From Hydrogenophaga sp. (GTDB taxonomy: Bacteria > Pseudomonadota > Gammaproteobacteria > Burkholderiales > Burkholderiaceae_C), in assembly GCF_051858985.1 (NCBI RefSeq), contig NZ_JBHYGM010000003.1:161645-225644 (forward strand): a stretch of DNA of 64,000 bases, read 5' to 3'. Under the pieces are notes generated by a model. That model did not search any database and had not been told where the DNA came from. It worked only from the letters and a program-made list of their open reading frames with translations. Positions 9,283 to 23,877 of this stretch are shown here, one piece after another (positions within the stretch are counted from its first letter, which is position 1; each line of letters begins with the position of its first letter). A program made the translations under genes and the position numbers.

Positions 9283-10842
9283 ATGAGAAGTTCAATAACT
9301 CGGGGACTGATTGAAGCAGAACCCATATTTTCCCCGAAAGAGGAAGCGCATAGCGATCGCGCTGCTCCGAATCCTGCGGCCTTGATTGAGGCGATGCGCT
9401 CTTTGGGCTACACCCTTGAGACTGCAGTAGCCGACATCGTTGACAACAGCCTCTCACATGGCGCGAGCAATGTTCATATTCAATTTGACTGGGCTGGCCC
9501 CGCCTCGACGGTTTCAATTTCCGACGACGGCAACGGAATGAGTGAAAAGCGGTTAGTGGAGGCCATGCGCGCGGGATCACATGACCCGCGTGCGGAACGA
9601 GCAGCAGGAGATTTGGGCCGGTTCGGCTTGGGACTGAAAACGGCATCTTTTTCGCAGGCTAGTCGCTTGAGTGTGATGACGCGAGCCAAGGGGCTACCCG
9701 AAGCCATCCGAGTCTGGGATTTGCCGCATGTGTCCAAGGTGAACGACTGGCTGCTGTTGCGTGAGGTCAGCGCAAGCGCCTCTTTACAAGCGGAGTGGAT
9801 GCGTAGCCAGTCCTCAGGCACATGCGTGGTTTGGGAGGGCGTGGATCGACTGGTAGGGGACGCGAGCGCAGATAACGTGAACGCACACAAAGCATTCATG
9901 GAAGCAGCCGACCGCGTCGCAATCCATCTGGCTATGGTGTTTGGCGAGTTCCTCATCGGCGCTAGCGCAGTGAAGATCACCATAGGAAATGTTGCGCTAT
10001 CTCGCTGGGATCCCTTTCTGCGGGATCATTCTGCTACACAGGTACTTCCCCAGGAGCAGCTTGCTGACGGCCGACACGGTATTTCCGTGCAGCCATATGT
10101 CCTGCCGCACCACTCGCGACTATCCAAGAGCGAATTCGTGACAGCAGCGGGCGCCAAGGGATGGAACTCGCATCAGGGCTTTTACGTTTATCGGAATCGG
10201 AGACTGATCTCTGCAGGGGGCTGGCTCTCTTTGGGACTTACTCGCGATGAGCATCTGAAGCTCGCGCGAATTCGGATCGACTTGGGCAATGAAGTCGACT
10301 TCGACTGGAAGCTGGATGTGCGCAAGTCGGTGGCCAGCCCGCCGATTGCGTTGCGGCAGGAGTTGCGACGCATCGCGCGCCTGACGCGTGAACGTGCTCA
10401 AGAGGTTTATCGCCACCGTGGGCGGCGAATCGTGGCAGCCAGCCCGGATGACCAATCCACTGTCTGGGAGGCAAGACAGATGCGTGGCAAGACCTTGTTT
10501 CGCATCAGTAGAGATCACCCATTGGTCAGGGCATTGACAGGCCCAGATGAAAGTGGGCGCGCCACAGAGGCCCTGCTCAAACTAGTGGAGCAGACGATTC
10601 CATTGGCCTCGATCTACATTCGCCATGCTGAGGCTCCGAACGATCAACCGACTCCGTTTGATGACACAAAGGACGCGGCCTTTAAAGAGATGCTTTGTGA
10701 CCTTTACCAAGGCATGCGGGTGGCAGGGCATAGCCACGAACAGGCAGTGGCTACCCTGTCCACGCTTAGCGCCGTCAAGACCCGACCGCATTTGATTGCC
10801 ACGCTCCATTCAAATCCTCCTACGCTGTCTGAGCTCGACTGA
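9283..10842 (+). CDS. GHKL/MORC-family ATPase (MutL-like; MzaB-like)
   Basis: GHKL boxes ADIVDNS, DDGNGM, GRFGLGLKTAS, GTCVVW; S5-like second domain (QGFYVYRNRRLI, LARIRID); GAGGAG RBS. Confidence 0.9.
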   Translation: MRSSITRGLIEAEPIFSPKEEAHSDRAAPNPAALIEAMRSLGYTLETAVADIVDNSLSHGASNVHIQFDWAGPASTVSISDDGNGMSEKRLVEAMRAGSHDPRAERAAGDLGRFGLGLKTASFSQASRLSVMTRAKGLPEAIRVWDLPHVSKVNDWLLLREVSASASLQAEWMRSQSSGTCVVWEGVDRLVGDASADNVNAHKAFMEAADRVAIHLAMVFGEFLIGASAVKITIGNVALSRWDPFLRDHSATQVLPQEQLADGRHGISVQPYVLPHHSRLSKSEFVTAAGAKGWNSHQGFYVYRNRRLISAGGWLSLGLTRDEHLKLARIRIDLGNEVDFDWKLDVRKSVASPPIALRQELRRIARLTRERAQEVYRHRGRRIVAASPDDQSTVWEARQMRGKTLFRISRDHPLVRALTGPDESGRATEALLKLVEQTIPLASIYIRHAEAPNDQPTPFDDTKDAAFKEMLCDLYQGMRVAGHSHEQAVATLSTLSAVKTRPHLIATLHSNPPTLSELD

Positions 10843-13763
10843 TGAACCTCTCAATCACCAACTTTCTCCCTGACGCTCAAAAAGAGGCACGTGCCCAAGC
10901 ACGCACTGCCCTGACTCGCTTTCCAAATCCAGATCTGGAACGCATCCGCATCTGCTGCGACAAGGCACGTCGTTTTGTTGAGGAGGACTTCGGCCAAGGG
11001 TCTGTGGATGTCGAGGAGCTCGTCGATTACTTCGCTGCCAACAGCAACATCTTCGTGCCTCTTGCACAGACGCTGAAGGATTCAAAAGACCACGTTGATT
11101 GGCTAGCAGGGCGTAGGGGAGAGATTCCATGGAAGTTCTGGCAGCGCTATCAGACTTTTCTTCAGTCAATTGAGGAACTGCCAGATCCCGTCATTCGATC
11201 CATAGAGGTTCGTACAGAAGGGATTCTGGAGCTACTAGAAGACCCGCGGCGTCCTGGTCCATGGGACAGGCGTGGGCTTGTGGTGGGGAGCGTGCAGTCC
11301 GGCAAGACGGGCAACTTCCTAGGACTCGCCAGCAAGGCTCTGGATGCTGGCTACAAACTAGTGATCATCTTGGCAGGCATCCACAACAGCTTGCGCGCGC
11401 AGACGCAGATTCGGATGGAGGAAGGCTTGCTCGGTTACAACACTGACTCAAGCCTATTTTTTGAGGAGGCAAGTACGAAGGTCGGAGTTGGCACGCTCGC
11501 ATTCCCGGATCTTCCGGTGAACTCGATGACTTCCCGAGCAGAGACAGGTGACTTCAAGGCTAGCAACCTTGGGACCGTGATGCACTTGGGCGAAACACCC
11601 TTCATCGTCGTCGTCAAGAAGCACGCCAGCATCCTAGAAAATCTGCGAAAGTGGCTAACGCTAAAGAATGGGGTGGAGCTTCCCGACGGAAGCAAACTTG
11701 TCAGGGACTTGCCTATGCTTGTAATCGACGACGAGGCTGATCATTCGTCGATCAACACCAGAAAGCTCACAAAGCTAAGCGCAGACGGGATCTCTGCAGA
11801 AGAGGTGGATCCCACTCGAATCAACCAGCGTATCCGGCAGTTGCTCCAAGCTTTCGACAAAAGCGCTTATGTCGGTTACACCGCAACACCGTTCGCGAAC
11901 ATCTTCGTGGATCCGAGAGCCAAGCATGAAAAGTTCGGCGAGGATTTATTTCCTCGAAGCTTCATTGTCTCGTTGCCTCCGCCAGAGAACTACTTCAGTG
12001 TTGAAAGGGCCTTCGGCAACGACGGGGACTGGGATTCGGGCATTGAGGCTACGCATGGGTTGCCCATAACGCGGCTGGTTGAGGATTTCCCAACAGGGGT
12101 CGGTTCCAGTTCCGCGCTCGCTGATTTACCGGGAACGCTCAAGGAGGCGATCAATGCATTCCTTCTTGTCTGTACGGCGCGTCACGCGCGCGGCCAGACG
12201 GCGAAGCACAATTCGATGTTGATCCATGTGGCTCGTTACATCGAGGCCCAAAGCAAGATTTCCGAACTTGTTCAGACAGAACTTTTGTTCTTGCAACGAC
12301 GCATCGCGAATGAACGTGATGATGCAGCAGTATCTTTGCGCGATGAACTACGGAAGCTCTGGGAATCCGACTTTGTGAAGACAACGCGCGACATTGCGGA
12401 GTGGAGCTGCCCCGAAATGAGTTGGGGGGAAATCGAGCCGTCGCTCATCGCGGCTATCTCGAAAATTCAAGTTCGCGAAATCAATGGGAGTTCCGGCGAC
12501 ATCCTCGACTATGAGAAACACCGCGATGCTGGCATCAGCGTGATCGCAGTGGGGGGAGACAAGCTTTCGCGCGGACTGACGCTCGAGGGGCTGTCGGTGT
12601 CGTACTACATGCGCGTATCGAAAATGTACGACTCGTTGCTGCAGATGGGACGTTGGTTTGGCTACCGGCCTGGCTATGTTGACCTCTGTCGCATATACAC
12701 GTCCCGAGAATTGATCGCTTGGTATCGTCACATTGCGCTTGCGGAAGCCGAGCTTCGTCGCGAGTTCGAACGAATGGCAGTGATCAAAGCCACGCCCGAG
12801 GAGTACGGCCTTCGAGTCCGTACCCACCCCGACGGAATGATGGTGACCGCCCTGAATAAAGCTAGAGCGAGTCAGAAAGTCCAAGTTTCGTACGAAGGAA
12901 CACTAACCCAGTGCGTGGTTCTCGACACGGCAGTCCACGTACGCAAAAACAACGAGAGTGCGACAACAACCCTGATTCAGAGAATGGGAGACACCAGGAT
13001 GCGCACCGAAGATGGCTTATCGCCAACGCGTATATGGTCGAGGATAGATGCCGAAGCAGTTTGCGCTTGGCTTGAAGCATTCCAGTCACCCATGGGTACA
13101 AACGGTTTCGACTCGCGTCGCATCAGCCAGTTCATTAGGCGGCAGCAAGGGAGCGGCGAACTTGTCGAATGGACGGTGGCCCTGGTCAGTGCTAATGGAG
13201 GTGCTGAATCCACGGTTGCAGATCTCAAGGTCCAACTCGCAAAGAGAAGTCATGCAGGAAGTCCTCGAGAGGGGCCGTATACGTTACTCAACAGTAACGT
13301 CCTCAACCCTCCAGACCAATGGATTGACCTGAAGGGAGCGGTGCTGGACGAGCTTTGGGTGAAACACCTATTGAAGAAGCGTGCCTTCAAGATAGAACAC
13401 CATGGCGAGCGTGCGGTGGTCGAAGGCGCGGTGGGACGCGACGCGCTAGAAGTAGCCCAAGAACTGAGCCTACTGCGCTTTGAGGCAGATCGAGAAGCCG
13501 GGCGTACTCGCTCCAACCAAACGGCTCCGAAGAAGCCTTTGGGGTCCGTAGTACGCGATATTCGCCCAACGAGTTGCGGACTTTTGCTGATTTATCCCCT
13601 CGACAGCTCCCACGCAGGCTTCGTCCCTAGTGACCTGCCGTTCTACACCTGCGCGATAAGCTTCCCCGCTAGCGCGACTGCAGTGCCAATCGAGTATCAA
13701 GTGAACGAGGTTTACCGCAGACTGCACTTGGATCAGTTGGAGGAGCCTGATCGTGAGGATTGA
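10842..13763 (+). CDS. Z1 domain protein with SF2-helicase-like N-terminus (MzaC-like putative endonuclease/translocase)
   Basis: GSVQSGKT (Walker A), IDDEADH (Walker B), YTATPFAN, LSRGLTLEGL, LQMGRWFGYRPGY; TGATG coupling to the ATPase gene. Confidence 0.9.
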   Translation: MNLSITNFLPDAQKEARAQARTALTRFPNPDLERIRICCDKARRFVEEDFGQGSVDVEELVDYFAANSNIFVPLAQTLKDSKDHVDWLAGRRGEIPWKFWQRYQTFLQSIEELPDPVIRSIEVRTEGILELLEDPRRPGPWDRRGLVVGSVQSGKTGNFLGLASKALDAGYKLVIILAGIHNSLRAQTQIRMEEGLLGYNTDSSLFFEEASTKVGVGTLAFPDLPVNSMTSRAETGDFKASNLGTVMHLGETPFIVVVKKHASILENLRKWLTLKNGVELPDGSKLVRDLPMLVIDDEADHSSINTRKLTKLSADGISAEEVDPTRINQRIRQLLQAFDKSAYVGYTATPFANIFVDPRAKHEKFGEDLFPRSFIVSLPPPENYFSVERAFGNDGDWDSGIEATHGLPITRLVEDFPTGVGSSSALADLPGTLKEAINAFLLVCTARHARGQTAKHNSMLIHVARYIEAQSKISELVQTELLFLQRRIANERDDAAVSLRDELRKLWESDFVKTTRDIAEWSCPEMSWGEIEPSLIAAISKIQVREINGSSGDILDYEKHRDAGISVIAVGGDKLSRGLTLEGLSVSYYMRVSKMYDSLLQMGRWFGYRPGYVDLCRIYTSRELIAWYRHIALAEAELRREFERMAVIKATPEEYGLRVRTHPDGMMVTALNKARASQKVQVSYEGTLTQCVVLDTAVHVRKNNESATTTLIQRMGDTRMRTEDGLSPTRIWSRIDAEAVCAWLEAFQSPMGTNGFDSRRISQFIRRQQGSGELVEWTVALVSANGGAESTVADLKVQLAKRSHAGSPREGPYTLLNSNVLNPPDQWIDLKGAVLDELWVKHLLKKRAFKIEHHGERAVVEGAVGRDALEVAQELSLLRFEADREAGRTRSNQTAPKKPLGSVVRDIRPTSCGLLLIYPLDSSHAGFVPSDLPFYTCAISFPASATAVPIEYQVNEVYRRLHLDQLEEPDRED

Positions 13764-14784
13764 GACGCTTGAGCAGTTCTGGCAAGAAATCGAGGCTTCC
13801 CCGAAGCCTGATCAGCTGGGCTGGGTGAGGAGATTAGCGAATGCAGGGGCCGTTGTGCCGGTACATGCTGCAGTCGCGTGCCGGGGAGGCACGCGATCCA
13901 TCATGCTCGATATTCCGGTGACGGCCGTGATCCTTCTCCAGCATCTGCCCTCGACAAGCGGGCTCACAGTTGAACTCGTGCCTGCGCTGCAGAATGTGCC
14001 GGAAGGCATGCGAACTTTGGCTGTCGCGTTGGAGGACTACCAGTACGTCGACATTTTCAGCGTGTTCTGCGCCGATGTAGTGGACGGCATTTCGCGATGT
14101 GTAAAGGTGCAGGATGCCGTTTTGTTATTGCTTCAACGCTTTCAGCGCTGGCAGCAATTTCTGAGTAAAGCTGTAGATGGGCTGAGTCAACAAGCACTGA
14201 TTGGTCTGTACGGTGAGCTTCAGGTGTTGCGCGAAATTCTGATTCCGCTCTGTGGGATTGGCATGGTTGCCGCTTGGTGCGGAGCTCAACGAACCCCGCA
14301 GGACTTCATAGTGCCAGGTATTTGCGCTGTGGAGGTAAAGAGCACTATGGCCAGATCGATGCTGCGAGTTCGCATCCATGGTGAACGCCAACTGGACGAT
14401 AACGGACTGACTTCTCTGTTTTTGGTTTGCTTTCGGCTCCAACGGGAGGAGGGAAGCGGGGAAAGCCTGAACCAACTTGTCGACGAGTTGCGGCAGCGAG
14501 CCGCGATTGCACCGGAGTTTTCAATGATTCTTGACCAGCACTTGGCCGACGCAGGTTGGTTCGAACGGCATCGTCAACGGTACGAAGCTCAGAGACTGGT
14601 AGTCGCGCAGCGGCGCTTTTTTCGCGTCGGCGAAGGCTTTCCGCGACTGCTTCCTCGCTCGTTGGCTGCGGGCATTGATGAAGTCGAGTACCAGCTCGAT
14701 CTGCGGTCTTGTGAATCCATGGAGTGTGGTTTTAAGGAATTTGAAGCCTCCTTGAGGGCCCTTGAGCTTGCTTCTGGCAAATGA
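13753..14784 (+). CDS. PD-(D/E)XK motif protein, DUF4420-like (MzaD-like)
   Basis: GLYGEL and QDF...AVEVKST nuclease-like motif; GTG start overlapping the Z1 gene end; conserved position between Z1 and AIPR. Confidence 0.85.
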   Translation: MRIETLEQFWQEIEASPKPDQLGWVRRLANAGAVVPVHAAVACRGGTRSIMLDIPVTAVILLQHLPSTSGLTVELVPALQNVPEGMRTLAVALEDYQYVDIFSVFCADVVDGISRCVKVQDAVLLLLQRFQRWQQFLSKAVDGLSQQALIGLYGELQVLREILIPLCGIGMVAAWCGAQRTPQDFIVPGICAVEVKSTMARSMLRVRIHGERQLDDNGLTSLFLVCFRLQREEGSGESLNQLVDELRQRAAIAPEFSMILDQHLADAGWFERHRQRYEAQRLVVAQRRFFRVGEGFPRLLPRSLAAGIDEVEYQLDLRSCESMECGFKEFEASLRALELASGK

Positions 14785-16856
14785 CGATGACGCTAAACGA
14801 CTACTTTCAGCAGCTGCGCAACGAAGTTCTGAACGATGCGGGAACCGACGGTGGCGAGACCTTCGTCGCCGAAGCTTTTACTCGACGCTTCCTCGACCTG
14901 CTTGCTGAAGCTGGGGAAATTGCAGATGCGGATGTCAGCTATTACGCGCGCACAGGCATGCGTGTCGATGGATATGCAGCCGACGAGAACGAAGACACAC
15001 TGGATTTGTTCGTGACGCTTCGCAATGGGGGCGAGGTTCCCGAGCCCATCGAAAAGCTTCGGGTCGATACGACCTTCCGGCAGTTGGCTGGCTTTTATGC
15101 AAAGGCGCAGGCAGGCCTGCATGCAAGGATGGAAGAGGTAGAACCAGCCTTTGAGCTCGCACAAAAGATTCACCTCCAGCATCAGCAGAACGAGGGCTTT
15201 AGCCGCGTTCGCCTGTTTCTCGTCACTGATGGGATAGTCAATGTCAACCGTCTGCCAGATCCGCCAGAACTTGGGGTGGCGAATGTCACTTTGCATGTTT
15301 GGGATTTGGAGCGACTGTTCCGGTGGTACAGCTCGGGCCGGGATCGCGAGGCTATCGAGGTAGTGCTGTCAGATCGTGACTTGCCGCCGGTTAGCTGCTT
15401 GGAATTCGACCAGCCCGGAGCAGACTACGTTAGTTATTTAGCGATCTTTCCGGCCGAGGTGCTGGTGTCGATTTACGGACGTTACGGACCACGCCTCCTC
15501 GAACGCAATGTTCGCTCGTTTCTGCAGGTTCGTGGTGAGATCAATAAGGGAATCCGCGCCACGATCATGGAGGAGCCGGACCGATTTTTCGCGTACAACA
15601 ACGGCCTCACCGCAACTGCATCGGAGATCGAGGTAGAGAGGCAGCCGAGCGGTGCTTTGCGAATCACGCGGTTAGTTGACTTGCAGATAGTCAATGGCGG
15701 GCAGACTACAGCCTCGCTCTTTCGTGCTGTGCGTAAGGATCGGGCCGATATCAGTCGGATCGCGGTCCAAGTGAAGCTCAACCGGGTGCGTGACCATGAG
15801 GCGCTCAGCGAGCTGGTTGGACATATTTCCAAGTTCGCCAATTCGCAGAACAAGGTTAGCGTGTCCGACTTATCGGCGAATGATCCGTTTAATCAGAGAC
15901 TCGAAGAGCTCTCTCGCACCGTCTGGGCTCCAGCTAAAGGTGGAGCTCAGCTTGAGACGAAGTGGTTTTATGAGAGGGCCCGGGCGCAGTACGCAGATGG
16001 ACTAGCGAGTGCGGACACACCCGCGAGGAGGTCAAAGTTCGAAAGGGAATATCCAAAAATTCAGCTATTCGGAAAAACAGATGTCGCTAAGTACGAGATG
16101 GCTTGGAACCAGTATCCTCATGTGGTGAGCCGAGGAGCACAGAAGTGCTTCGTGGTTTTTAACGAAGAGATAACCAAACGCGGTACAAACTATCGGCCCG
16201 AGAAGAGTTTCTTCGTTCACCTCATCGCGCGAAAGATCCTGTTTGACGCCTTGGACAAGATCGTGTTGAAGAAGAAGTACAGCTACAAGGCACAGGTTGT
16301 CGCATATGCACTTTCCTGGCTTTCGTTCCAGACGCGAAAGCGATTTGACTTTGATGCTGTGTGGAACGATCAAGCGATTTCGACACCAGTCCTCTTGTTC
16401 CTTGAAGACTTGGCCGAGCTTGTGCATCCCGTGATCGCGAGTCCCCCCGGTGGAAAGAATGTGACGGACTGGTACAAAAGTGAAGCTTGCTGGAAGTCTG
16501 TTCAGTTGCTTGACCTGTCATTGCCCGAAGGGCTCAAGAGTTTGGTTGATGAATCCTTGTTATCAGAAGCCATTGGTATCGACGCTCCAACAAGCGAGGA
16601 AGAGGTCGAGATCATTTGGGCTAGATCCGTCTCCGCCGAAGTTTGGTTCGAGATCTCTGCTTGGGCCAAGAGGACAGATTCGCTCGCATCTTGGCAGCGC
16701 AGCATTGCGTTCAGCCTCGGTAAGCTGTCGGGCCAAGGCCGGGCACCCTCACGCAAGCAAGCAACTCAAGGGCGGAGGCTGTATGACGAAGCGGTACGCC
16801 AAGGGTTTGCAAGTTCTGCCAAACCCGGCGATGCCTTCCTGGCGCGCTCAGGGTAA
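14781..16856 (+). CDS. AIPR family protein (MzaE-like)
   Basis: LLERNVRSFL, FFAYNNGLT, QIVNGGQTTASL, ANSQNKV motifs; ATGA overlap with the upstream gene. Confidence 0.9.
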   Translation: MTMTLNDYFQQLRNEVLNDAGTDGGETFVAEAFTRRFLDLLAEAGEIADADVSYYARTGMRVDGYAADENEDTLDLFVTLRNGGEVPEPIEKLRVDTTFRQLAGFYAKAQAGLHARMEEVEPAFELAQKIHLQHQQNEGFSRVRLFLVTDGIVNVNRLPDPPELGVANVTLHVWDLERLFRWYSSGRDREAIEVVLSDRDLPPVSCLEFDQPGADYVSYLAIFPAEVLVSIYGRYGPRLLERNVRSFLQVRGEINKGIRATIMEEPDRFFAYNNGLTATASEIEVERQPSGALRITRLVDLQIVNGGQTTASLFRAVRKDRADISRIAVQVKLNRVRDHEALSELVGHISKFANSQNKVSVSDLSANDPFNQRLEELSRTVWAPAKGGAQLETKWFYERARAQYADGLASADTPARRSKFEREYPKIQLFGKTDVAKYEMAWNQYPHVVSRGAQKCFVVFNEEITKRGTNYRPEKSFFVHLIARKILFDALDKIVLKKKYSYKAQVVAYALSWLSFQTRKRFDFDAVWNDQAISTPVLLFLEDLAELVHPVIASPPGGKNVTDWYKSEACWKSVQLLDLSLPEGLKSLVDESLLSEAIGIDAPTSEEEVEIIWARSVSAEVWFEISAWAKRTDSLASWQRSIAFSLGKLSGQGRAPSRKQATQGRRLYDEAVRQGFASSAKPGDAFLARSG

Positions 16857-16890
16857 ACCCCCCATCCCGCTTGTTTGCAACACAATTGTT

Positions 16891-18450
16891 TCAAGGGCGC
16901 TGTGGTCGCTTGGTATTTGGACGAGTGCTTAGGACTTTTGCTACGAGGTGTGCAATTTGATGCGACAGCAGTGATGGCACCGCGTTGCCCACTTGGTGGT
17001 ACTGCTGAGTGCGGTTGCCTTGGAAAAAGTAGTTGTCAGGAAAAGTCTGGAGCCTCGCAGCCTCTCGGACAGTGAGGCTGCGACATTGACTTGGATCCGG
17101 GTGAATGAAGTAGTGCCCATCCTTAGCGATGTGGCTGGTGACCGTTGTGCTCGGTTGGTCGTGGAGCTGCACCCGGAACCGGTCTACAAACTTGCCTGAC
17201 TCCCAGTTCTTGTGGTCAGGCGCCAAACCTTCCAATGGAAAGTCCTTGTGGCTCTTCGGTGTCCTCTTGTTCAGCAGCCCAAACACCGAAGTGTAGAAGT
17301 ACCGCCCCAGATCGCTATCCATGTGCGATCGAGATTCATGGTTAAGCCATACATCCAGTCGATCATCCTTTACCCAGTTCGCAAACGTGGAGGGCGATTC
17401 CAGTGCTTTTGTTTGTCGATATCGAAGAGCGCCAGTCTCCAGTGTCAGACCGAGCTTGATGGCAGCTCCTCTAAGTTGCAAAGCAAGTTGGTCAAACCCT
17501 TTGGACTCCGCATCCACAAGCAGCTTCTTCGCCATTCTTTGAACGACGAGTCTCCACTCATCATCGCTGTCGTTCTTGCTGAGTCTGCTTCTGAGTTGAG
17601 GGAGCGAAAAGATGGCGTTCTCGACGGTGAGAGATGGACGCTTTTCAAGCAGGTGTTGCCCCTCGTAACCCAGTTCTTCTCGTACACCCAGCAGGATGAC
17701 TCGGTGTCTTGCTTGGGGTATTCCATATTTTTCAGCTTCGATGATGAAGGCGTTGGCGTCGATGAAGTCTGGCTCCATGTCAGCTTTGTACGTCGCCTCA
17801 CTCACTAGGGAGTGGATGGTGTATCTGACGCCATCAGGATTGCCGAGTGCCTTTCCTGGTTCTGCCAGATCTCGCAGGATGTCGTGGAAGACCAGCTTTC
17901 CGTTCACCTTTGACGACAGAATCCCTTTCACGTTTTCCATCACAAAGACGGCGGGTCGTGTTGTATTCAGGATCCGCAAGTATTCACGGTAAAGAAAGTG
18001 TCTGTGGTCGTTCTCGGCCACATAGTCTCCCTTCCCTCGATTGCGTGAACGCCCCACCAGTGAGTACGCCTGACATGGTGGTCCTCCGATCAGTACGGTT
18101 TCGTCTTCTTTCAGACGCGCATTGCGAAGGAGCTCGTCAAGTAGAAGGTTGTGCGCCGGGTCACCGAGAGTCAGCTTGTGGGCTTCGGCCTTTGCTTCTT
18201 TCCAGGCGGCTGGCGCGAGATCCCCTGGATGAGCAGCTTCCGCAGAATGGCAGTAGTCATAGTACGCATTCAGCGCTCTTTGGTCACCCTGGATGCGCCT
18301 GAAGAAACTGCGGAGCGTCAGCGTCTTGTGTGCGCTCTCTTCCATCTCGGCAGAAACTGCTATCTCATAGCTCTTTCCGCCTGCATGAGAGGCGAAGCCC
18401 TCGCCCAGTCCCCCCGGACCAGCGAATAAATCCACGATCTTGTAAGTCAT
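16891..18450 (-). CDS. dcm: DNA (cytosine-5)-methyltransferase
   Basis: Motif I DLFAGPGG, IV GGPPCQ, VI ENVKG, VIII PQARHR, IX REAARLQTFPD, X GNAVP; ATG overlaps the vsr stop (TGATG). Confidence 0.95.
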   Translation of the reverse strand: MTYKIVDLFAGPGGLGEGFASHAGGKSYEIAVSAEMEESAHKTLTLRSFFRRIQGDQRALNAYYDYCHSAEAAHPGDLAPAAWKEAKAEAHKLTLGDPAHNLLLDELLRNARLKEDETVLIGGPPCQAYSLVGRSRNRGKGDYVAENDHRHFLYREYLRILNTTRPAVFVMENVKGILSSKVNGKLVFHDILRDLAEPGKALGNPDGVRYTIHSLVSEATYKADMEPDFIDANAFIIEAEKYGIPQARHRVILLGVREELGYEGQHLLEKRPSLTVENAIFSLPQLRSRLSKNDSDDEWRLVVQRMAKKLLVDAESKGFDQLALQLRGAAIKLGLTLETGALRYRQTKALESPSTFANWVKDDRLDVWLNHESRSHMDSDLGRYFYTSVFGLLNKRTPKSHKDFPLEGLAPDHKNWESGKFVDRFRVQLHDQPSTTVTSHIAKDGHYFIHPDPSQCRSLTVREAARLQTFPDNYFFQGNRTQQYHQVGNAVPSLLSHQIAHLVAKVLSTRPNTKRPQRP

Positions 18451-18974
18451 CAATCTGTCTTCTTCTCAGTTTCTATTCGTAGTGTCGGCAGCGCTCGAAG
18501 TTCGCCGATCTGCTGGTCAGACTCGATCCAGTCAGTCAGTGCGGTCTGAACATCAAGGAGCGATCTGGTTGTTCTCAGGAAACACTCCCAAACTAACAGC
18601 ACTCTCCAGCCCATTTCTTGAAGTGCCGCTTCACATCTGGCATCCCGGGCCACATTTGCTTGGAGCTTCCCCGCCCAGAACTCGGGGCGCGTGGTGGGGA
18701 GTTTGGCGAAACGGCAATTCAGGTGGTGGTGCCAGAAGCAACCGTGTACGAAAACCGCAATTTTTCTGCCCGGCATGACCATATCGGGCTTTCCAGGCAG
18801 ATCTCGTCGATGAAGGCGGTATCGGTACCCGGCCGCAAAAAGCGCCTTCCGAACAATCAGTTCAGGTTTGGTGTTGCTCCCGCGAATGCCGGACATCATG
18901 GCGCTTCGTTTTTCGGGAGATACGACGTCTACCAAGGCGGTTCCCTGTTGGAGGTCAGAGGGCGAGCAGGTCAA
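18450..18974 (-). CDS. vsr: Very short patch repair endonuclease (true start may be TTG at 18935)
   Basis: DVVSPEKRSAMMSGIRGSNTKPE, LPGKPD, FVHGCFWHHH, N..RD, GWRVLLVWEC. Confidence 0.95.
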   Translation of the reverse strand: MTCSPSDLQQGTALVDVVSPEKRSAMMSGIRGSNTKPELIVRKALFAAGYRYRLHRRDLPGKPDMVMPGRKIAVFVHGCFWHHHLNCRFAKLPTTRPEFWAGKLQANVARDARCEAALQEMGWRVLLVWECFLRTTRSLLDVQTALTDWIESDQQIGELRALPTLRIETEKKTD

Positions 18975-19209
18975 TCAAGCCGGTTGATCGTACCAGGTTG
19001 CCCCGTGGAGCCAGTCCATTCTTTGGTGTTGCCATTGCTTATCCGTCGACCTTCTCCGGACAAGGGCGACTGTTTATCATGACGCACACCCTGGTCGCCG
19101 CGTCGTCTCAGGCCTCCCACCTGCGTTCCAGCGCGCGAGACAGGCATAGCCGCAGAGGCGGCGGTTCCGAGTTCTCCCTCACCCGCCCGCACCTCCTTCT
19201 CGTCCGTCC

Positions 19210-20427
19210 ATGCAGTCCGACCGTCACGTTCAGGCCAACACCCCCGCCGCGCGCCAATCCCCCTGGCCACGCCGCGCGCTCTGGGTCGCCCTGCTGCTCG
19301 GCACAGGCTTCGCCGCTTGGTGGTTCCTCCTTCGCCCACCCGCTCCACCCCCAGCCACGCGCGGCCCTTGGGACATTCCCATCCCCGTGCGGGTGGAAAC
19401 GGCGCTGGTGGAGGACTTCACCGTGCAGGCCCGCGCCGTGGGCACGGTGTCGCCTTACAACACGGTCACGGTGCGCAGCCGGGTGGATGGTCAGTTGGCG
19501 CGCGTGCTGGTGCGCGAAGGGCAGAAGGTGACCAAGGGCCAGTTGCTGGCCGAGATCGATCCCGAGCCTTTGCGGGTGGCGCTCTCGCAGGCGCAGGGCC
19601 AGCAGCAGCAGAACCAGGCCCAGCTTCGCAATGCAGAGAGCGAGCTGGCGCGCTACGACATGCTCTTCAAGCGCGACGCGGTGGCGCGCCAGGTGCTGGA
19701 CAGGCAGGCCGCGCTGGTGCAGCAGCTGCGCGGCACGCTCAAGAGTGACCAGGCGCAGGTGGACAACGCGCAGTTGCAGCTCTCTTACACGCGCATCGTG
19801 GCGCCCATTGCCGGGCGTGTGGGCCTGCGCCGGGTGGACGCGGGCAACCTGATTTCGGCGAACGACGCCAATGGCTTGTTCACGTTGACGCAGACGCAGC
19901 CGGTGTCGGTGGTCTTCAATGTGCCCGAGCCGCTGGTGGCCGATGTGCGTGCCGCGCACGACGGCAAGACGCCGCCGCAGGCCGAAGCGTGGGACAGGGA
20001 CAACCGCGCCCGTCTGGCGCTGGGCCGGCTGGACACGCTGGACAACCAGATCGACGCGGCCACTGCCACCCTGCGGCTCAAGGCGCGCTTCGAGAATGCG
20101 GACGACGCGCTGTTTCCCAACCAGTTCGTGAACGTGCGGCTCTCGCTGCGGCAGTTGCCCGGCGCCATCACCATCCCCACCGACGCCGTGCAACACGGTT
20201 CGCGCGGGAGCTATGTGTATGTGATCGTGGAGGGCAAGGCCCGGGTGCGGGATTTGTCGCTGGGCCCGGCGAGCGGTGGGCGCACGGTGGTGACGAAGGG
20301 GCTGGCTGCCGGTGAGCCGGTGGTGCTGGAAGGGCTCGACAGGCTGGAGGACGGCCGCGCGGTGAACATCGTGCAGCAGGCGGGGCAGGTGCCGGTTGCT
20401 TCGCCGCTGGCGCCGGACGCGAAGTGA
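19210..20427 (+). CDS. mdtA: RND efflux membrane fusion protein, MdtA-like
   Basis: N-terminal membrane anchor, VTVRSRVDGQL, LSYTRIVAPIAGRVGLRRVDAGN, LFPNQFVNVRL. Confidence 0.9.
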   Translation: MQSDRHVQANTPAARQSPWPRRALWVALLLGTGFAAWWFLLRPPAPPPATRGPWDIPIPVRVETALVEDFTVQARAVGTVSPYNTVTVRSRVDGQLARVLVREGQKVTKGQLLAEIDPEPLRVALSQAQGQQQQNQAQLRNAESELARYDMLFKRDAVARQVLDRQAALVQQLRGTLKSDQAQVDNAQLQLSYTRIVAPIAGRVGLRRVDAGNLISANDANGLFTLTQTQPVSVVFNVPEPLVADVRAAHDGKTPPQAEAWDRDNRARLALGRLDTLDNQIDAATATLRLKARFENADDALFPNQFVNVRLSLRQLPGAITIPTDAVQHGSRGSYVYVIVEGKARVRDLSLGPASGGRTVVTKGLAAGEPVVLEGLDRLEDGRAVNIVQQAGQVPVASPLAPDAK

Positions 20428-20610: not shown

Positions 20611-20737
20611 CCCTTCGACAAGCTCAGGGCGAACGGGAGCGTGGGCAGGCTCGGGCCCTTCGACAGGCTCAGGGCGAACGGGGGCGTGGGCAGGCTCGGG
20701 CCCTTCGACAAGCTCAGGGCGAACGGGGGCGTGGGGG
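20611..20737 (+). repeat. Three 45-bp tandem units, each with an inverted REP-like arm CCCTTCGACA(A/G)GCTCAGGGCGAACGG
   Basis: Units start at 20611, 20656 and 20701 (third truncated); arms are near reverse complements of the arm at 20562-20587. Confidence 0.93.
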
Positions 20738-20742
20738 CTGAC

Positions 20743-23700
20743 ATGTCTACCTCCGCCGCCGCACCGGTTTCCATCTCCCGGCCTTTCATCCTGCGGCCGG
20801 TGGCCACCTCGCTGCTGATGCTGGCGATGCTGATTGCCGGTTTGCTGGCCTGGCGGCAGTTGCCGGTGTCGGCTTTGCCGCAGGTGGATTACCCGGTCAT
20901 CCAGGTGTTCACCTTCCAGCCCGGCGCCAGCCCGGACGTGACCGCGCGCACCGTCACCGCGCCGCTGGAAAGGCGCTTGGGGCAGATTCCGGGGCTGGTG
21001 CAGATGTCGTCCACCAGCTCGGGCGGGGCGTCGGTCATCACCATGAAGTTCGCGCTGGAGGTGAACCTGGGCGTGGCCGAGCAGGACGTGCAGGCCGCGC
21101 TGCAAAGCGCCAACAGCCTGCTGCCTTCCGACCTGCCCGCGCCGCCGATCTACCGCAAGGTGAACCCGGCGGACGCGCCCATCCTCACGCTGGCCATCGG
21201 GTCTGAAACGCTGCCGCTGCCGCGCGTGGTGGACCTGGTGGACACGCGCATGGCGGGCCAGCTCTCGCGCCTGCAGGGCGTGGGCCTGGTGAGCCTGGCG
21301 GGTGGGCAGCGCCCGGCCATTCGGGTGCAGGCCAACAGCCGCGCGCTGGCCGCCAACGGGCTCACGCTGGAAGAGCTGCGCACGGCCATTGCCGCGGCCA
21401 ACAACAACCAGCCCAAGGGCAGTTTTGATGGCGCGTTGCGCAGCACCATGCTGGACGCCAACGACCAGCTCCGCTCCGCCGCCGAATACCAGCGGCTCAT
21501 CGTGGCCTGGCGCAACGGCGCGCCGCTGCGCCTGGCCGACGTGGCGCAGGTGGAAGAGGGCGCGGAAGACCGCTTTCTGGCCGCCTGGGCCGGCATGGCC
21601 TGCGCCGAGGGGCAGACCGATGGCTGTGGTCTCGCACCGGCGGTGCTGCTCAACATCCAGCGCCAGCCGGGCGCGAATGTGATCGCCGTGGCCGACCAGG
21701 TGCGCGCGCTGCTGCCGCAGCTCACGGCCACGCTGCCAGCCACCGTCAAGGTGCAGGTGGTTTCAGACCGCACCGAGAGCATCCGCGCTTCCGTGCGTGA
21801 TGTGCAGAAAGAACTGCTGTTCGCCATTGCGCTGGTGGTGCTGGTCACCTTCGTGTTTCTGCGCACGCTGCCGGCCACGCTCATTCCCAGTGTGGCGGTG
21901 CCGCTCTCGCTCATTGGCACCTTCGCGGCCATGTATTTGCTCGGCTACTCGCTCAACAACCTGAGCCTGATGGCGCTCACCATCGCCACCGGTTTCGTGG
22001 TGGACGACGCCATCGTCATGCTGGAAAACATTGCCCGCCACCGCGAAGACGGCGCCGCGCCGATGGAGGCCGCGCTCAAGGGCGCGAGCGAGATCGGCTT
22101 CACGCTCATCTCGCTCACGGTCTCGCTGGTGGCGGTGCTGATTCCGCTGCTCTTCATGGCCGACGTGGTGGGCCGCCTGTTCCACGAATTCGCGGTCACG
22201 CTGGCGGTGGCCATCGGCATCTCGCTGGTGGTGTCGCTCACGCTCACGCCCATGATGGCGGCGCGCATGCTCAAGCGCGCACCCACGCACGACGGCGGGC
22301 GCGACTGGCTGAGCGGCACCATCGAACGCTACGGCCGCGGGCTGGACTGGGTGCTGGCGCGCCAGCCGCTGGCGCTGCTGGTGATGGCCGCCACGCTGCT
22401 GCTCACGGCGCTGCTGTATTTGTGGGTGCCCAAAGGCTTTTTCCCTGTGCAGGACGCGGGTTCCATCCAGGTGGTCACCGAAGCGCCGCAGAGCGTGTCG
22501 TTCGGCGCCATGGCCGAACGCCAGCAGGCGCTGGCCGAGGCGCTGCTGAAAGAGGCACCCGTGCAAAGCGTGTCGTCGTTCATCGGCGTGGACGGCAGCA
22601 ACGCCACGCTCAACAGCGGGCGCATGCAGCTCACGCTGGCGCCGCACGCCGACCGCTCGGTGTCGGCCAGCGAGCTGATTGAACGCCTGCGCGAACGCGC
22701 GCGCGGCATCAGCGGCATCGAAGCGTGGTTCCAGCCGGTGCAGGAGCTGGGCATGGAAGACCGCATCAGCCGCACGCAATACCAGTTCACGCTCAGCTCG
22801 CCCGACCGCACGGTGCTGGCCGAATGGACCGGCCGCATGCAGCAGGCGCTGGCCGAGCGCCCGGAGCTGGCGGACGTGGCCAGCAACCTGCAGCGCGAAG
22901 GCCTGCAGGCTTTCCTGGAGATCGACCGCGACGCCGCCGCGCGCCTGGGCCTGCGCATGAGCGACATTGCTTCTGCCCTGCAGAGCGCGTTTGGCCAGCG
23001 GCAGGTGAGCACGCTGTTCACGCACGCCAGCCAGTACCGCGTGGTGCTGGAGACCGACGACGCGAAGCAGGGCGGGCTGCAGGCGCTGGAAGGCGTGTTC
23101 GTGAAGCCGGCCACGGGTGGAGCCAGCGCAGTGCCGGTGCCGCTCTCGGCCGTGGCGCGCGCGGTGGAGCGGCGCGCGCCGCTGGCCATCGACCACCAGG
23201 GCCAGTTCCCGGCGGTCACGCTGTCGTTCAACCTCGCGCCCGGCCATTCGCTGGGCGAGGCGGTGGCGGCCATTGAGGAAGTCCAGGTGCAGGTGGCGCT
23301 GCCGGCCTCGGTGGAGCTCGCGTTCCAGGGCGCTGCCGAAGGCTTCCGCAACTCGCTGGCCAACACGCTGTGGCTGGTGCTGGCGGCGGTGGTGGTGATG
23401 TACCTGGTGTTGGGCATGCTGTACGAGAGCGCGGTCCACCCGCTCACCATTCTGTCCACGCTGCCGTCGGCCACGGTGGGCGCGCTGGCCGCGCTGCTGC
23501 TGGCGGGGCGGCCGCTCGATCTGATCGCCATCATCGGCATCGTGCTGCTGATCGGGCTGGTGAAGAAGAACGGCATCATGATGGTGGACTTCGCGCTCGA
23601 CGCGCAGCGCCGCCTCGGCATGACGCCGCGCGAAGCCATCCACCGAGCGGCGCTGCTGCGCTTTCGCCCCATCCTCATGACGACGCTGGCCGCGCTGTTC

Positions 23701-23877
23701 GGTGCCGTGCCGCTCATGCTGGCCAGCGGCTCCGGGGCCGAGCTGCGCCAGCCGCTGGGCATCGTCATAGTGGGTGGGCTCATCGTCAGCCAGGTGTTGA
23801 CGCTGTTCACCACGCCGGTGGTGTATCTGGCGTTTGATCGGCTGACGCGGCGGCGCAAACCGGCGGCGGCGCCATGA
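20743..23877 (+). CDS. mdtB: RND efflux permease, MdtB-like
   Basis: [64 protein letters not shown] at 20743; the ORF track's upstream extension is REP-derived. Confidence 0.92.

What the first reader, a model, noticed from the sequence alone, without database searches (positions are those of the whole stretch)
9283..18974. Mza-like MORC-Z1-DUF4420-AIPR defence operon paired with a convergent vsr-C5 methyltransferase unit and lacking the mzaA gene
Seen: four translationally coupled genes (TGATG, 11-nt and ATGA overlaps) encode a GHKL ATPase, an SF2/Z1 protein, a PD-(D/E)XK protein and AIPR. They face a coupled vsr-dcm pair on the other strand, all in lower-GC DNA. Established: this core matches the MORC-associated restriction-like systems and the antiphage mza (MutL-Z1-AIPR) system. 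As I recall it, the tested mza also has an ankyrin/sigma-like first gene, which is absent here. Inference: this may be an ATP-driven restriction machine whose self/non-self mark is the 5mC written by the neighbouring MTase, with Vsr repairing the resulting T:G mismatches. The mechanism of such systems is poorly defined.
Basis: partly seen in the sequence, partly recalled or inferred. Interest (0 to 1): 0.75.

Follow-up and report, generated by a model that had tools for sequence, protein, structure and literature searches.

The report
Methylase-linked Mza-type restriction island
A 10-kb horizontally acquired island carries a four-gene ATP-driven nuclease machine (a relative of the Mza anti-phage system) beside its own cytosine methylase and mismatch-repair nuclease; this is an ordinary member of a very widespread, computationally described family whose mechanism is still untested.

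Summary
Four translationally coupled genes sit at 9283-16856 (+): a GHKL/MORC-like ATPase, a DEAD-Z1 SF2 motor, a DUF4420 PD-(D/E)XK nuclease and an AIPR protein. They face a coupled vsr-dcm pair at 16891-18974 (-). All lie in a ~10-kb island of 53-57% GC inside 64-72% GC DNA. All catalytic motifs are intact and no mzaA is present.

- In 54 of 54 related genome loci with enough flank, a C5 methylase lies beside the cassette. Vsr is present in 41 of 54.
- An ankyrin-sigma70 MzaA gene occurs in only about 11 of 83 loci, and those with readable flanks also carry Dcm and Vsr.
- The tested E. coli mzaABCDE is 29-37% identical to the window proteins, belongs to the MzaA-bearing subclade, and has no dcm within 9-10 kb.

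This architecture was described in silico by Iyer 2008 and Miller 2022, so the window is a new member of a known kind.

One further result: cassette genes co-evolve, but the Dcm-Vsr module is swapped freely. In one pair the cassettes are 92% identical in DNA while the methylases are about 50% identical and lie on opposite sides. The cassette therefore probably does not carry a sequence specificity matched to its methylase. Mechanism remains inferred.

The parts
9050..19100 (.). Low-GC island of about 10 kb that holds all six genes. It lies between an SRAP/YedK gene (8311-9030, -) and an RND efflux operon (HlyD-family gene 19210-20427, +).
   Evidence: GC profiles. Flank Pfam hits. No tRNA, and no flanking direct repeats or integrase.
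9050..9282 (+). AT-rich leader (GC about 0.45) upstream of the first gene. It is presumed to be the promoter region.
   Evidence: The simple sigma-70 scan found no consensus site, so the promoter assignment is inferred only.
9283..10842 (+). MzaB-like GHKL (MutL/MORC-type) ATPase, 519 aa.
   Evidence: Pfam HATPase_c_3 6.5e-29. PADLOC MzaB 2.5e-101. NCBIfam MzaB 416 bits against a cut-off of 850. Motifs D51/N55, DxGxG at 81 and GxxGxG at 112 are invariant in 80 of 80 aligned relatives.
10842..13763 (+). MzaC-like DEAD-Z1 SF2 helicase-like motor, 973 aa. It has unassigned N-terminal (1-135) and C-terminal (about 680-955) regions.
   Evidence: Pfam Z1 3e-79. PADLOC MzaC 4.9e-167 and RM 'Helicase_II' 2e-30. 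Walker A GSVQSGKT at 149, DEAD at 297, TATP at 347 and QMGRWFG at 601; the scored positions are invariant in 83 of 83 relatives apart from A299. The AlphaFold2 model (pLDDT 78.7) matches SF2 helicases such as Brr2, PriA, Mfd, RecQ, HamB and LlaGI.
13753..14784 (+). MzaD-like DUF4420 PD-(D/E)XK nuclease, 343 aa.
   Evidence: Pfam DUF4420 9e-61. D184, E194 and K196 are invariant in 79 of 79 relatives. D184 aligns with E. coli MzaD D187, which was mutated in preprint 10.1101/2022.06.16.496414.
14781..16856 (+). MzaE-like AIPR protein, 691 aa, or 689 aa if it starts at ATG 14787.
   Evidence: Pfam AIPR_N and AIPR. Conserved core residues include N243, R245, N273-N274, the N305-G-G-Q-T-T segment, K332, N354, N357 and E398. 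No R-x4-6-H motif. The AlphaFold2 model has pLDDT 85.8 and no significant PDB fold match.
16857..16890 (.). 34-nt spacer between the convergent stop codons of AIPR and dcm.
   Evidence: The scan predicted no terminator here.
16891..18450 (-). C5 cytosine DNA methyltransferase, 519 aa, with a long variable region (about 250-440).
   Evidence: Pfam DNA_methylase 9e-46. TIGR00675 135 bits, above its cut-off of 100.65. Motifs FAGPGG at 9, PPCQ at 124, ENV at 172, QARHR at 246 and GNAVP at 488. The best PADLOC model is DrmMII, 7.6e-91.
18450..18974 (-). Vsr very-short-patch mismatch endonuclease. It is 174 aa from TTG 18974. A more likely form is 161 aa from TTG 18935, which has AGGGA 5 nt upstream.
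   Evidence: Pfam Vsr 9e-32. TIGR00632 153 bits, above its cut-off of 97.85. Its stop codon overlaps the dcm ATG. Start codons read.

Best explanation
This is a six-gene, horizontally acquired restriction-modification-like defence island of the Dcm-linked Mza type.

**Modification arm (minus strand).** Dcm writes 5-methylcytosine on the host chromosome. Vsr nicks the T:G mismatches produced when 5mC deaminates.

**Restriction arm (plus strand).** Four translationally coupled proteins probably act as one ATP-dependent complex.
- The DEAD-Z1 protein is a double-stranded DNA translocase, as in the CglI H-subunit.
- The MutL/MORC-like GHKL ATPase is a dimerising clamp or switch that couples translocation to cleavage.
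- The DUF4420 PD-(D/E)XK protein cuts DNA.
- AIPR is an accessory whose role is unknown, possibly a sensor or regulator.

DNA that lacks the host's 5mC pattern is attacked and methylated host DNA is spared.

**Basis of each step.**
- Shown here: the gene content, the intact catalytic motifs, the SF2 fold of the motor and the invariable genomic linkage to a C5 methylase.
- Taken from the literature on relatives: anti-phage activity and nuclease activity of MzaD, and translocase activity of DEAD-Z1.
- Inferred: that 5mC is the protective mark, that the four proteins form one complex, and how methylation is read.

The Dcm-Vsr module is exchanged between nearly identical cassettes, and only C5 methylases are found beside them. 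I therefore think the cassette does not carry a recognition domain matched to one methylase. It more likely reads cytosine methylation in a sequence-independent way or relies on the methylase for recognition.
For: **Domains and motifs.**

**Motor fold.** SF2 helicase fold for the Z1 protein.

**Operon structure.** Tight coupling of the four genes and of vsr-dcm.

**Foreign origin.** Foreign GC content.

**Linkage to the methylase.**
- Of 54 related loci with a complete cassette and at least 3 kb on both sides, a C5 methylase lies within 1 kb in 44, within 3 kb in 53, and within the fetched flanks in all 54. Vsr is present in 41.
- The same holds in closer relatives.

**Co-evolution.** Cassette genes co-evolve with Z1: MORC rho 0.68, AIPR 0.65, DUF4420 0.49. 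Dcm (0.18) and Vsr (0.25) do not.

**Module swap.**
- L066 and L081 share 91.8% DNA identity over 7.55 kb of cassette.
- The Dcm-Vsr modules lie on opposite sides and are about 50% identical. Windows in the variable region fall to 20% identity.
- No 40-aa window in any cassette protein falls below 75% identity.

**Literature.**
- Predicted RM operons of MORC, Z1-helicase, RE-fold protein, AIPR, DCM and VSR (PMC2292703).
- The same core with a cytosine methylase called a putative defence system (PMC9523054).
- DEAD-Z1 is a translocase motor in CglI (PMC5861437).
- E. coli mzaABCDE restricts T4 without growth arrest and MzaD cuts DNA in vitro (10.1101/2022.06.16.496414).
- A 'methyltransferase-encoding mza' co-occurs with GCAGC modification (PMC10687267).
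Against: - No functional data exist for this locus. No RNA-seq run holds it; only one DNA run does.
- The tested E. coli mzaABCDE has no dcm or vsr within 9-10 kb. It protects when cloned without a methylase, so methylation may not be needed for self-protection in at least that subclade.
- No 5mC-reading or sequence-recognition domain was found in any cassette protein.
- The L066 and L081 methylases might still recognise the same site.
- The locus sample is biased: it is the best 80 of 586 hits among the first 600 pattern matches, one genome per species.
- The methylase's target sequence is unknown.
Confidence: 0.6

Rival explanations
1. The four-gene cassette is a methylation-independent Mza defence, like the cloned mzaABCDE. 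It tells self from non-self by another cue. The vsr-dcm pair is an autonomous methylase module, orphan or belonging to another system, that sits beside the cassette only because defence genes cluster.
For: - E. coli mzaABCDE loci have no linked dcm or vsr and protect when cloned alone (10.1101/2022.06.16.496414).
- Dcm-Vsr position, orientation and clade vary freely and do not co-evolve with the cassette.
- In L003 the adjacent methylase sits beside an EcoRII-C endonuclease, so it may belong to that RM system.
Against: - 54 of 54 informative loci from phyla as distant as Methanosarcina, Cyanobacteria, Actinomycetota and Pseudomonadota carry a C5 methylase beside the cassette, 44 of them within 1 kb. 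Chance clustering cannot give that.
- Among the families recurring in the flanks, the only methyltransferase found was the C5 type.
Confidence: 0.12
2. This is a guard or abortive-infection model. The cassette monitors the methylation state or the methylase itself. If a phage blocks or outruns methylation, the complex, with AIPR as effector, degrades DNA indiscriminately and kills or arrests the cell.
For: - AIPR belongs to the AbiU1/AIPR abortive-infection family, which is frequently tied to RM systems (PMC3506569, PMC2292703).
- PADLOC AbiU hit 1.3e-21.
- Purified MzaD cuts all DNA types tested without modification specificity (10.1101/2022.06.16.496414).
Against: - E. coli cells carrying mzaABCDE showed no growth arrest at any multiplicity of infection (same preprint).
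- The window's AIPR has no R-x4-6-H HEPN motif.
- The acidic residues of its N-terminal domain are not conserved.
Confidence: 0.13
3. This is a Type III-like model. The C5 methylase is itself the DNA-recognition subunit of the restriction complex, so swapping the methylase changes modification and restriction specificity together.
For: - It explains why the cassette needs no co-adapted recognition domain.
- It explains why a methylase is always present.
- Iyer 2008 notes the resemblance to Type III systems (PMC2292703).
Against: - Methylases of very different clades, 25-30% identical, partner with similar cassettes without co-evolution.
- The methylase is often on the opposite strand or the opposite side of the cassette.
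- Cloned mzaABCDE works with no cognate methylase.
Confidence: 0.12
4. This is not a defence system. It is a portable very-short-patch or mismatch repair kit that offsets the mutagenic cost of the mobile methylase, made of a MutL-like ATPase, a helicase, an excision nuclease and Vsr.
For: E. coli MutL interacts with and stimulates Vsr, and helicase plus nuclease complete excision. The analogy is drawn in PMC2292703.
Against: - Relatives give phage resistance (10.1101/2022.06.16.496414).
- 13 of 54 loci lack Vsr.
- AIPR is a family associated with abortive infection and RM systems.
- The E. coli loci lie in defence islands.
Confidence: 0.04

Closest known systems
mzaABCDE anti-phage system (named in the defence-system literature; E. 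coli version tested in preprint 10.1101/2022.06.16.496414; NCBIfam NF041932-35, PADLOC MzaB-E)
   Same: - Same four proteins in the same order with overlapping genes: GHKL ATPase, Z1 motor, DUF4420 nuclease, AIPR.
- The nuclease Asp that was mutated in E. coli MzaD (D187) aligns with window D184.
   Different: - Only 37%, 37%, 29% and 31% identical to E. coli MzaB, C, D and E.
- Scores reach 39-49% of the equivalog cut-offs.
- No MzaA.
- The window has its own dcm and vsr; the E. coli loci have none within 9-10 kb.
- The window's AIPR is about 90 aa longer at the C-terminus.
Predicted MORC / Z1-helicase / novel RE-fold / AIPR restriction-modification operons (Iyer, Abhiman & Aravind 2008, PMC2292703) and the 'type II' putative defence system of Miller et al. 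2022 (PMC9523054)
   Same: - Exactly this gene set, including the frequent cytosine methylase and Vsr.
- The Z1 signature motif DThhQxuRhFG is present as D597-SLLQMGRWFG.
- MzaA is rare in these systems, as here.
   Different: Nothing substantive. These are computational descriptions only, so no mechanism or target motif is known for comparison.
CglI / NgoAVII NTP-dependent restriction enzymes (PMC4267653, PMC5861437)
   Same: - A DEAD-Z1 helicase-like motor (PADLOC Helicase_II 2e-30) works with a separate nuclease subunit and a methyltransferase gene.
- In CglI, long-range ATP-driven translocation activates cleavage.
   Different: - The nuclease here is a PD-(D/E)XK DUF4420 protein, not a PLD-B3 R-subunit.
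- Two extra components are present: the GHKL ATPase and AIPR.
- The Z1 protein is 973 aa with additional terminal domains.
E. coli Dcm-Vsr very-short-patch repair pair
   Same: A C5 methylase and a Vsr endonuclease encoded by overlapping genes.
   Different: - Here vsr comes first and dcm second.
- The window Dcm matches the E. coli-type Dcm model only weakly (NF007772, 63 bits against a cut-off of 710).
- The target site is unknown.

Membership tests
Mza (mzaABCDE) as defined by NCBIfam equivalogs and PADLOC | MzaB, MzaC, MzaD and MzaE homologues in that order in one operon | tested here: met
   PADLOC E-values 2.5e-101, 4.9e-167, 1.2e-24 and 3.3e-81. Order and overlaps confirmed.
Mza (mzaABCDE) as defined by NCBIfam equivalogs and PADLOC | Scores above the NCBIfam equivalog cut-offs | tested here: not met
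   416 of 850, 686 of 1500, 164 of 420 and 378 of 1050 bits. Identity to the E. coli proteins is 29-37%.
Mza (mzaABCDE) as defined by NCBIfam equivalogs and PADLOC | MzaA (ankyrin plus sigma-70 protein) encoded directly upstream of mzaB | tested here: not met
   Ten ORFs between 5.7 and 9.3 kb gave no PADLOC hit, and NCBIfam gave only one weak hit, to an unnamed family. The upstream neighbour is SRAP on the other strand. MzaA is present in about 11 of 83 related loci.
Mza (mzaABCDE) as defined by NCBIfam equivalogs and PADLOC | Anti-phage activity | not testable with these tools
   No expression or phenotype data. Only one DNA run holds the sequence.
MORC/Z1-helicase RM-like operons (Iyer 2008) and the Miller 2022 type II system | GHKL (MORC or paraMORC) ATPase with intact Bergerat motifs | tested here: met
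   The S5 transducer domain was not tested separately.
MORC/Z1-helicase RM-like operons (Iyer 2008) and the Miller 2022 type II system | SF2 helicase with a C-terminal Z1 domain carrying the DThhQxuRhFG motif | tested here: met
   Pfam Z1 3e-79. D597-SLLQMGRWFG. SF2 fold matches.
MORC/Z1-helicase RM-like operons (Iyer 2008) and the Miller 2022 type II system | RE-fold protein with a D...ExK motif (DUF4420) | tested here: met
   D184, E194 and K196 invariant.
MORC/Z1-helicase RM-like operons (Iyer 2008) and the Miller 2022 type II system | Adjacent cytosine methyltransferase, often with Vsr, plus AIPR | tested here: met
   Family-wide linkage is 54 of 54 for Dcm and 41 of 54 for Vsr.
CglI/NgoAVII-type restriction enzymes | PLD-nuclease/B3 R-subunit partnered with the DEAD-Z1 H-subunit | tested here: not met
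   No PLD or B3 domain in any island ORF. The nuclease is DUF4420.
DISARM (because DrmMII is the best PADLOC model for the methylase) | DrmA, DrmB and DrmC genes beside the methylase | tested here: not met
   The other island proteins hit only Mza, AbiU, Helicase_II and Vsr models.
Classical restriction-modification (methylation protects, the nuclease recognises the same site) | Restriction component with a specificity matched to the methylase | tested here: inconclusive
   The methylase module is swapped between nearly identical cassettes that show no hypervariable patch. This argues against a matched domain. The target sites of the methylases are unknown, so the test is not decisive.

The most novel reading that the evidence does not exclude
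The cassette is a sequence-agnostic sensor of cytosine-5 methylation. Its translocating complex is switched off by any 5mC it meets, so any C5 methylase can supply the 'self' mark.

This reading would explain four observations:
- Only C5 methylases accompany the cassette.
- The methylase module can be swapped without any change in the cassette.
- The methylase may sit on either side and on either strand.
- The enterobacterial mzaABCDE, the only subclade seen without its own methylase, can do without one because E. coli and Salmonella carry a core Dcm-Vsr.

MzaA would then be an optional regulator, not a replacement for the methylase.
Probability: 0.2. Interest if true: 0.75.

Novelty: new member of a known kind. 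Interest (0 to 1): 0.35.

Why it matters
**The locus.** It is one more copy of a very common island. More than 8000 homologues of the Z1 and AIPR proteins exist, spread across bacteria and archaea, and the gene set has been described computationally since 2008.

**The family.**
- No mechanism for Mza-type systems appears in the searched literature.
- No related solved structure turned up in sequence or profile searches for the four proteins, or in fold searches with the Z1 and AIPR models.
- The family contains the bacterial relatives of eukaryotic MORC ATPases, which act near methylated DNA.

**The result here.** The cassette always travels with a C5 methylase but exchanges it freely. That sharpens the open question of how methylation is read, and it suggests a simple experiment: swap the methylases and test cross-protection.

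Tried and rejected
- **Solved structures by sequence or profile.** Searches with the four cassette proteins and with alignments A1 and A2 found nothing useful. The only hit was MutL at E=0.009 for the ATPase.
- **Fold search with the AIPR model.** No significant match. HamA and Nt.BspD6I appeared only at probability 0.2-0.3. I therefore do not call AIPR_N a nuclease.
- **Extra domains.** Relaxed Pfam scans of the unassigned regions of the Z1, MORC, DUF4420 and AIPR proteins looked for a 5mC reader and found none.
- **HEPN motif.** No R-x4-6-H motif in AIPR.
- **Specificity subunit test.** I asked whether DUF4420 co-varies with Dcm once Z1 distance is controlled. The partial correlation is only 0.17, against 0.10-0.15 for the other cassette proteins, so there is no specific signal.
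- **Island boundaries.** No tRNA, integrase or flanking repeats. The only other contig carrying the same SRAP gene also carries the island, so no empty site was found.
- **Promoters and terminators.** The scan was uninformative.
- **Expression.** No RNA run holds the locus.
- **Methylase target.** It could not be inferred. PDB relatives align only over the catalytic motifs.
- **Searches that failed.** blastn of the window's Z1 gene against E. coli genomes found nothing; L079's gene did find mzaC. A first attempt at iterated HMMs timed out. A cluster of about 150-aa ORFs in 18 loci proved to be mostly antisense to vsr.
Full report
**1. Observation**

- 9283-10842 (+), 10842-13763 (+), 13753-14784 (+), 14781-16856 (+).
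- On the minus strand, 16891-18450 (dcm) and 18450-18974 (vsr).

The junctions are exactly as described.
- TGATG between genes 1 and 2.
- An 11-nt overlap between genes 2 and 3.
- ATGA between genes 3 and 4.
- TGATG between the vsr stop and the dcm ATG.
- The convergent stop codons of AIPR and dcm are 34 nt apart.

GC content falls from 0.64-0.72 to 0.52-0.57 between about 9050 and 19100.

The flanks are host genes.
- An SRAP/YedK gene at 8311-9030 (-).
- An RND efflux operon, with a HlyD-type gene at 19210-20427 and AcrB at 20641-23877.

There is no tRNA, integrase or flanking repeat. The only other public contig with the same SRAP protein also carries the island.

**2. Identity of the parts**

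Pfam, PADLOC and NCBIfam agree.
- Gene 1 is a GHKL ATPase (HATPase_c_3; MzaB model).
- Gene 2 is a Z1 protein (MzaC model). It also hits PADLOC's RM 'Helicase_II' model, the class that includes the CglI and NgoAVII motor.
- Gene 3 is a DUF4420 PD-(D/E)XK protein (MzaD model).
- Gene 4 carries AIPR_N and AIPR (MzaE model, with a weaker AbiU hit).
- The minus-strand genes are a C5 methylase and Vsr.

All four cassette proteins score at only 39-49% of the NCBIfam equivalog cut-offs.

The catalytic motifs are intact in the window.
- ATPase: D51/N55, DDGNG at 81, GRFGLG at 112.
- Motor: GSVQSGKT at 149, DEAD at 297, TATP at 347, QMGRWFG at 601.
- Nuclease: D184, then E194-V-K196.
- Methylase: FAGPGG, PPCQ, ENV, QARHR, GNAVP.

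The ATPase, motor and nuclease positions scored are invariant in about 80 relatives, apart from G85 and A299.

An AlphaFold2 model of the Z1 protein (pLDDT 78.7) matches SF2 helicases and translocases. This agrees with the published demonstration that DEAD-Z1 is a helicase-like motor (PMC5861437).

The AIPR model is confident (pLDDT 85.8) but has no significant PDB match.
- Its conserved core is rich in polar residues, including the NGGQTT segment at 305-310.
- It lacks an R-x4-6-H motif.

Sequence and profile searches of the PDB found no solved relative of any cassette protein.

**3. Is the methylase part of the system?**

I fetched 80 related loci, one genome per species, with an alignment of Z1 homologues. 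I added loci of closer relatives.

The order ATPase, Z1, DUF4420, AIPR is conserved throughout.

With iterated HMMs for Dcm and Vsr, I counted the 54 loci that have a complete cassette and at least 3 kb on both sides.
- A C5 methylase lies within 1 kb in 44.
- It lies within 3 kb in 53.
- It lies within the fetched flanks in all 54.
- Vsr is present in 41.

Every locus without a detected methylase is cut by a contig end. The hosts range from Methanosarcina to Cyanobacteria, Actinomycetota, Bacteroidota and Pseudomonadota.

The sample is biased towards the best 80 of 586 hits among the first 600 pattern matches. A full census is still needed.

**4. The methylase is linked but interchangeable**

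The methylase lies upstream or downstream and on either strand. Among relatives 66-77% identical to the window's Z1 protein I saw four other arrangements, none identical to the window's vsr-then-dcm pair.

Pairwise distances show two patterns.
- Cassette genes track each other. Spearman rho against Z1 is 0.68 for MORC, 0.65 for AIPR and 0.49 for DUF4420.
- Dcm (0.18) and Vsr (0.25) do not track the cassette, although they track each other (0.44).

The clearest case is L066 against L081.
- 7.55 kb of cassette DNA is 91.8% identical, and homology stops at the cassette edges.
- The Dcm-Vsr modules lie on opposite sides and are about 50% identical.
- Windows in the methylase variable region fall to 20% identity.
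- No 40-aa window of any cassette protein drops below 75% identity.

L059 against L073 behaves the same way.

Among the ORF families that recur in the flanks, the only methyltransferase is the C5 type.

Together these points argue that the cassette has no recognition domain matched to a particular methylase. The alternative, that the swapped methylases share a target site, cannot be excluded without knowing their motifs.

**5. MzaA and the tested Mza**

Clustering the flanking ORFs revealed one further recurrent family directly upstream of the ATPase gene. It is a protein of about 650-900 aa with ankyrin repeats and sigma-70 regions 2, 3 and 4. This is MzaA.
- It occurs in about 11 of 83 loci.
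- Wherever the flanks of those loci are readable, they also carry Dcm and Vsr.

I located canonical E. coli mzaABCDE by blastn with L079. It is present in 55 of 5426 complete genomes. The four loci I inspected have these features.
- They sit next to yecA in a defence island.
- They have no dcm or vsr within 9-10 kb.
- In two strains mzaB is disrupted by IS421.

E. coli MzaC is 53-60% identical to the Z1 proteins of ten MzaA-bearing loci, and their ranks are the ten highest. It is under 49% identical to the other listed loci and 37% identical to the window's protein.

So the tested system belongs to an MzaA-bearing subclade whose non-enteric members keep Dcm and Vsr. The window belongs to the larger MzaA-less group. 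Lack of mzaA is therefore ordinary, as Miller et al. also noted (PMC9523054).

**6. Prior knowledge**

- Iyer et al. 2008 (PMC2292703) described predicted RM operons combining MORC, a Z1-type SF2 helicase, a novel RE-fold protein, AIPR, cytosine methylases and Vsr. They proposed ATP-driven DNA looping.
- Miller et al. 2022 (PMC9523054) rediscovered the core of Z1, a PD-(D/E)XK protein and a cytosine methylase, with AIPR and MORC in their 'type II'. They found about 20% identity to mzaBCDE and mzaA present only rarely. The system was not tested.
- Preprint 10.1101/2022.06.16.496414 shows that E. coli mzaABCDE restricts T4 carrying C, hmC and, less well, glucosyl-hmC, without growth arrest. Purified MzaD cuts DNA, and D187A weakens that activity. 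D187 aligns with window D184.
- PMC10687267 reports strains with a 'methyltransferase-encoding mza' and GCAGC modification.
- I found no mechanistic or structural paper on Mza.

**7. Mechanism and verdict**

- Most likely (about 0.6): a methylation-protected, ATP-dependent restriction complex. The Z1 motor translocates, the GHKL ATPase clamps or switches, DUF4420 cuts and AIPR assists. Dcm marks self DNA and Vsr repairs deamination damage.
- Shown: gene content, motifs, the motor fold and the linkage.
- Inferred: the protective role of 5mC, formation of a complex and the way methylation is read.
- Rivals: a methylation-independent Mza with an unrelated neighbouring methylase; a guard or abortive-infection model; a Type III-like model in which the methylase supplies recognition; and a portable repair kit.
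- Most novel reading still allowed (about 0.2): the cassette reads 5mC irrespective of sequence, and the enteric Mza relies on the host's core Dcm.

The window's locus is a new member of a known, computationally described kind. Interest is moderate to low for the locus and higher for the family's unsolved mechanism.

Noticed in passing
window 6592-8301 (-): A 569-aa ORF (called as 527 aa on contig L085) with host-like GC. It has no Pfam, NCBIfam or PADLOC hit and lies between the SRAP gene and a 4HBT thioesterase / acyl-CoA dehydrogenase cluster.
   Followed up: partly
L066 7062-14613 versus L081 8257-15809: The cassette DNA is 91.8% identical and homology ends at the cassette edges. The Dcm-Vsr modules lie on opposite sides and are about 50% identical. 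L066 also has a second, larger C5-methylase ORF downstream (15743-17980, -).
   Followed up: yes
L086-L089 (E. coli chromosomes): Canonical mzaABCDE sits beside yecA in a defence island with DUF262, PD-(D/E)XK and restriction endonuclease genes, and has no dcm or vsr nearby. In strains G1/2 and 214-4, mzaB is split by IS421.
   Followed up: partly
L003 4783-7867: In a relative with 66% Z1 identity, the adjacent C5 methylase is fused to an HTH domain and sits beside an EcoRII-C endonuclease gene. One methylase may therefore serve two restriction systems.
   Followed up: no
L039 15954-18761 (-), L071 8414-10951 (-), L072 15806-19201 (-): Large ORFs of 846-1132 aa lie convergent just downstream of AIPR. 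Only their C-termini match sigma-70 region 4 of E. coli MzaA, so they may be a different regulator.
   Followed up: no
window 14781-14789 and 18935-18974: Two start codons are ambiguous. AIPR may begin at ATG 14781 or ATG 14787; the database protein is 689 aa. vsr may begin at TTG 18974 or, more plausibly, at TTG 18935, which has AGGGA 5 nt upstream.
   Followed up: partly
window 16580-16856 (AIPR residues about 600-691): Window-type AIPR proteins carry a C-terminal helical extension of about 90 aa with invariant W622, W628 and W638-Q-R. E. coli MzaE, at 598 aa, is that much shorter.
   Followed up: no
L091 7057-8001, and the contig carrying P0003: In one close relative the ATPase gene is shortened to 314 aa with no Pfam hit, and IS (rve) genes lie a few kb upstream. 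In another, an integrase-like gene follows the Dcm. Two relatives sit next to gyrB, so the island inserts at different sites.
   Followed up: no
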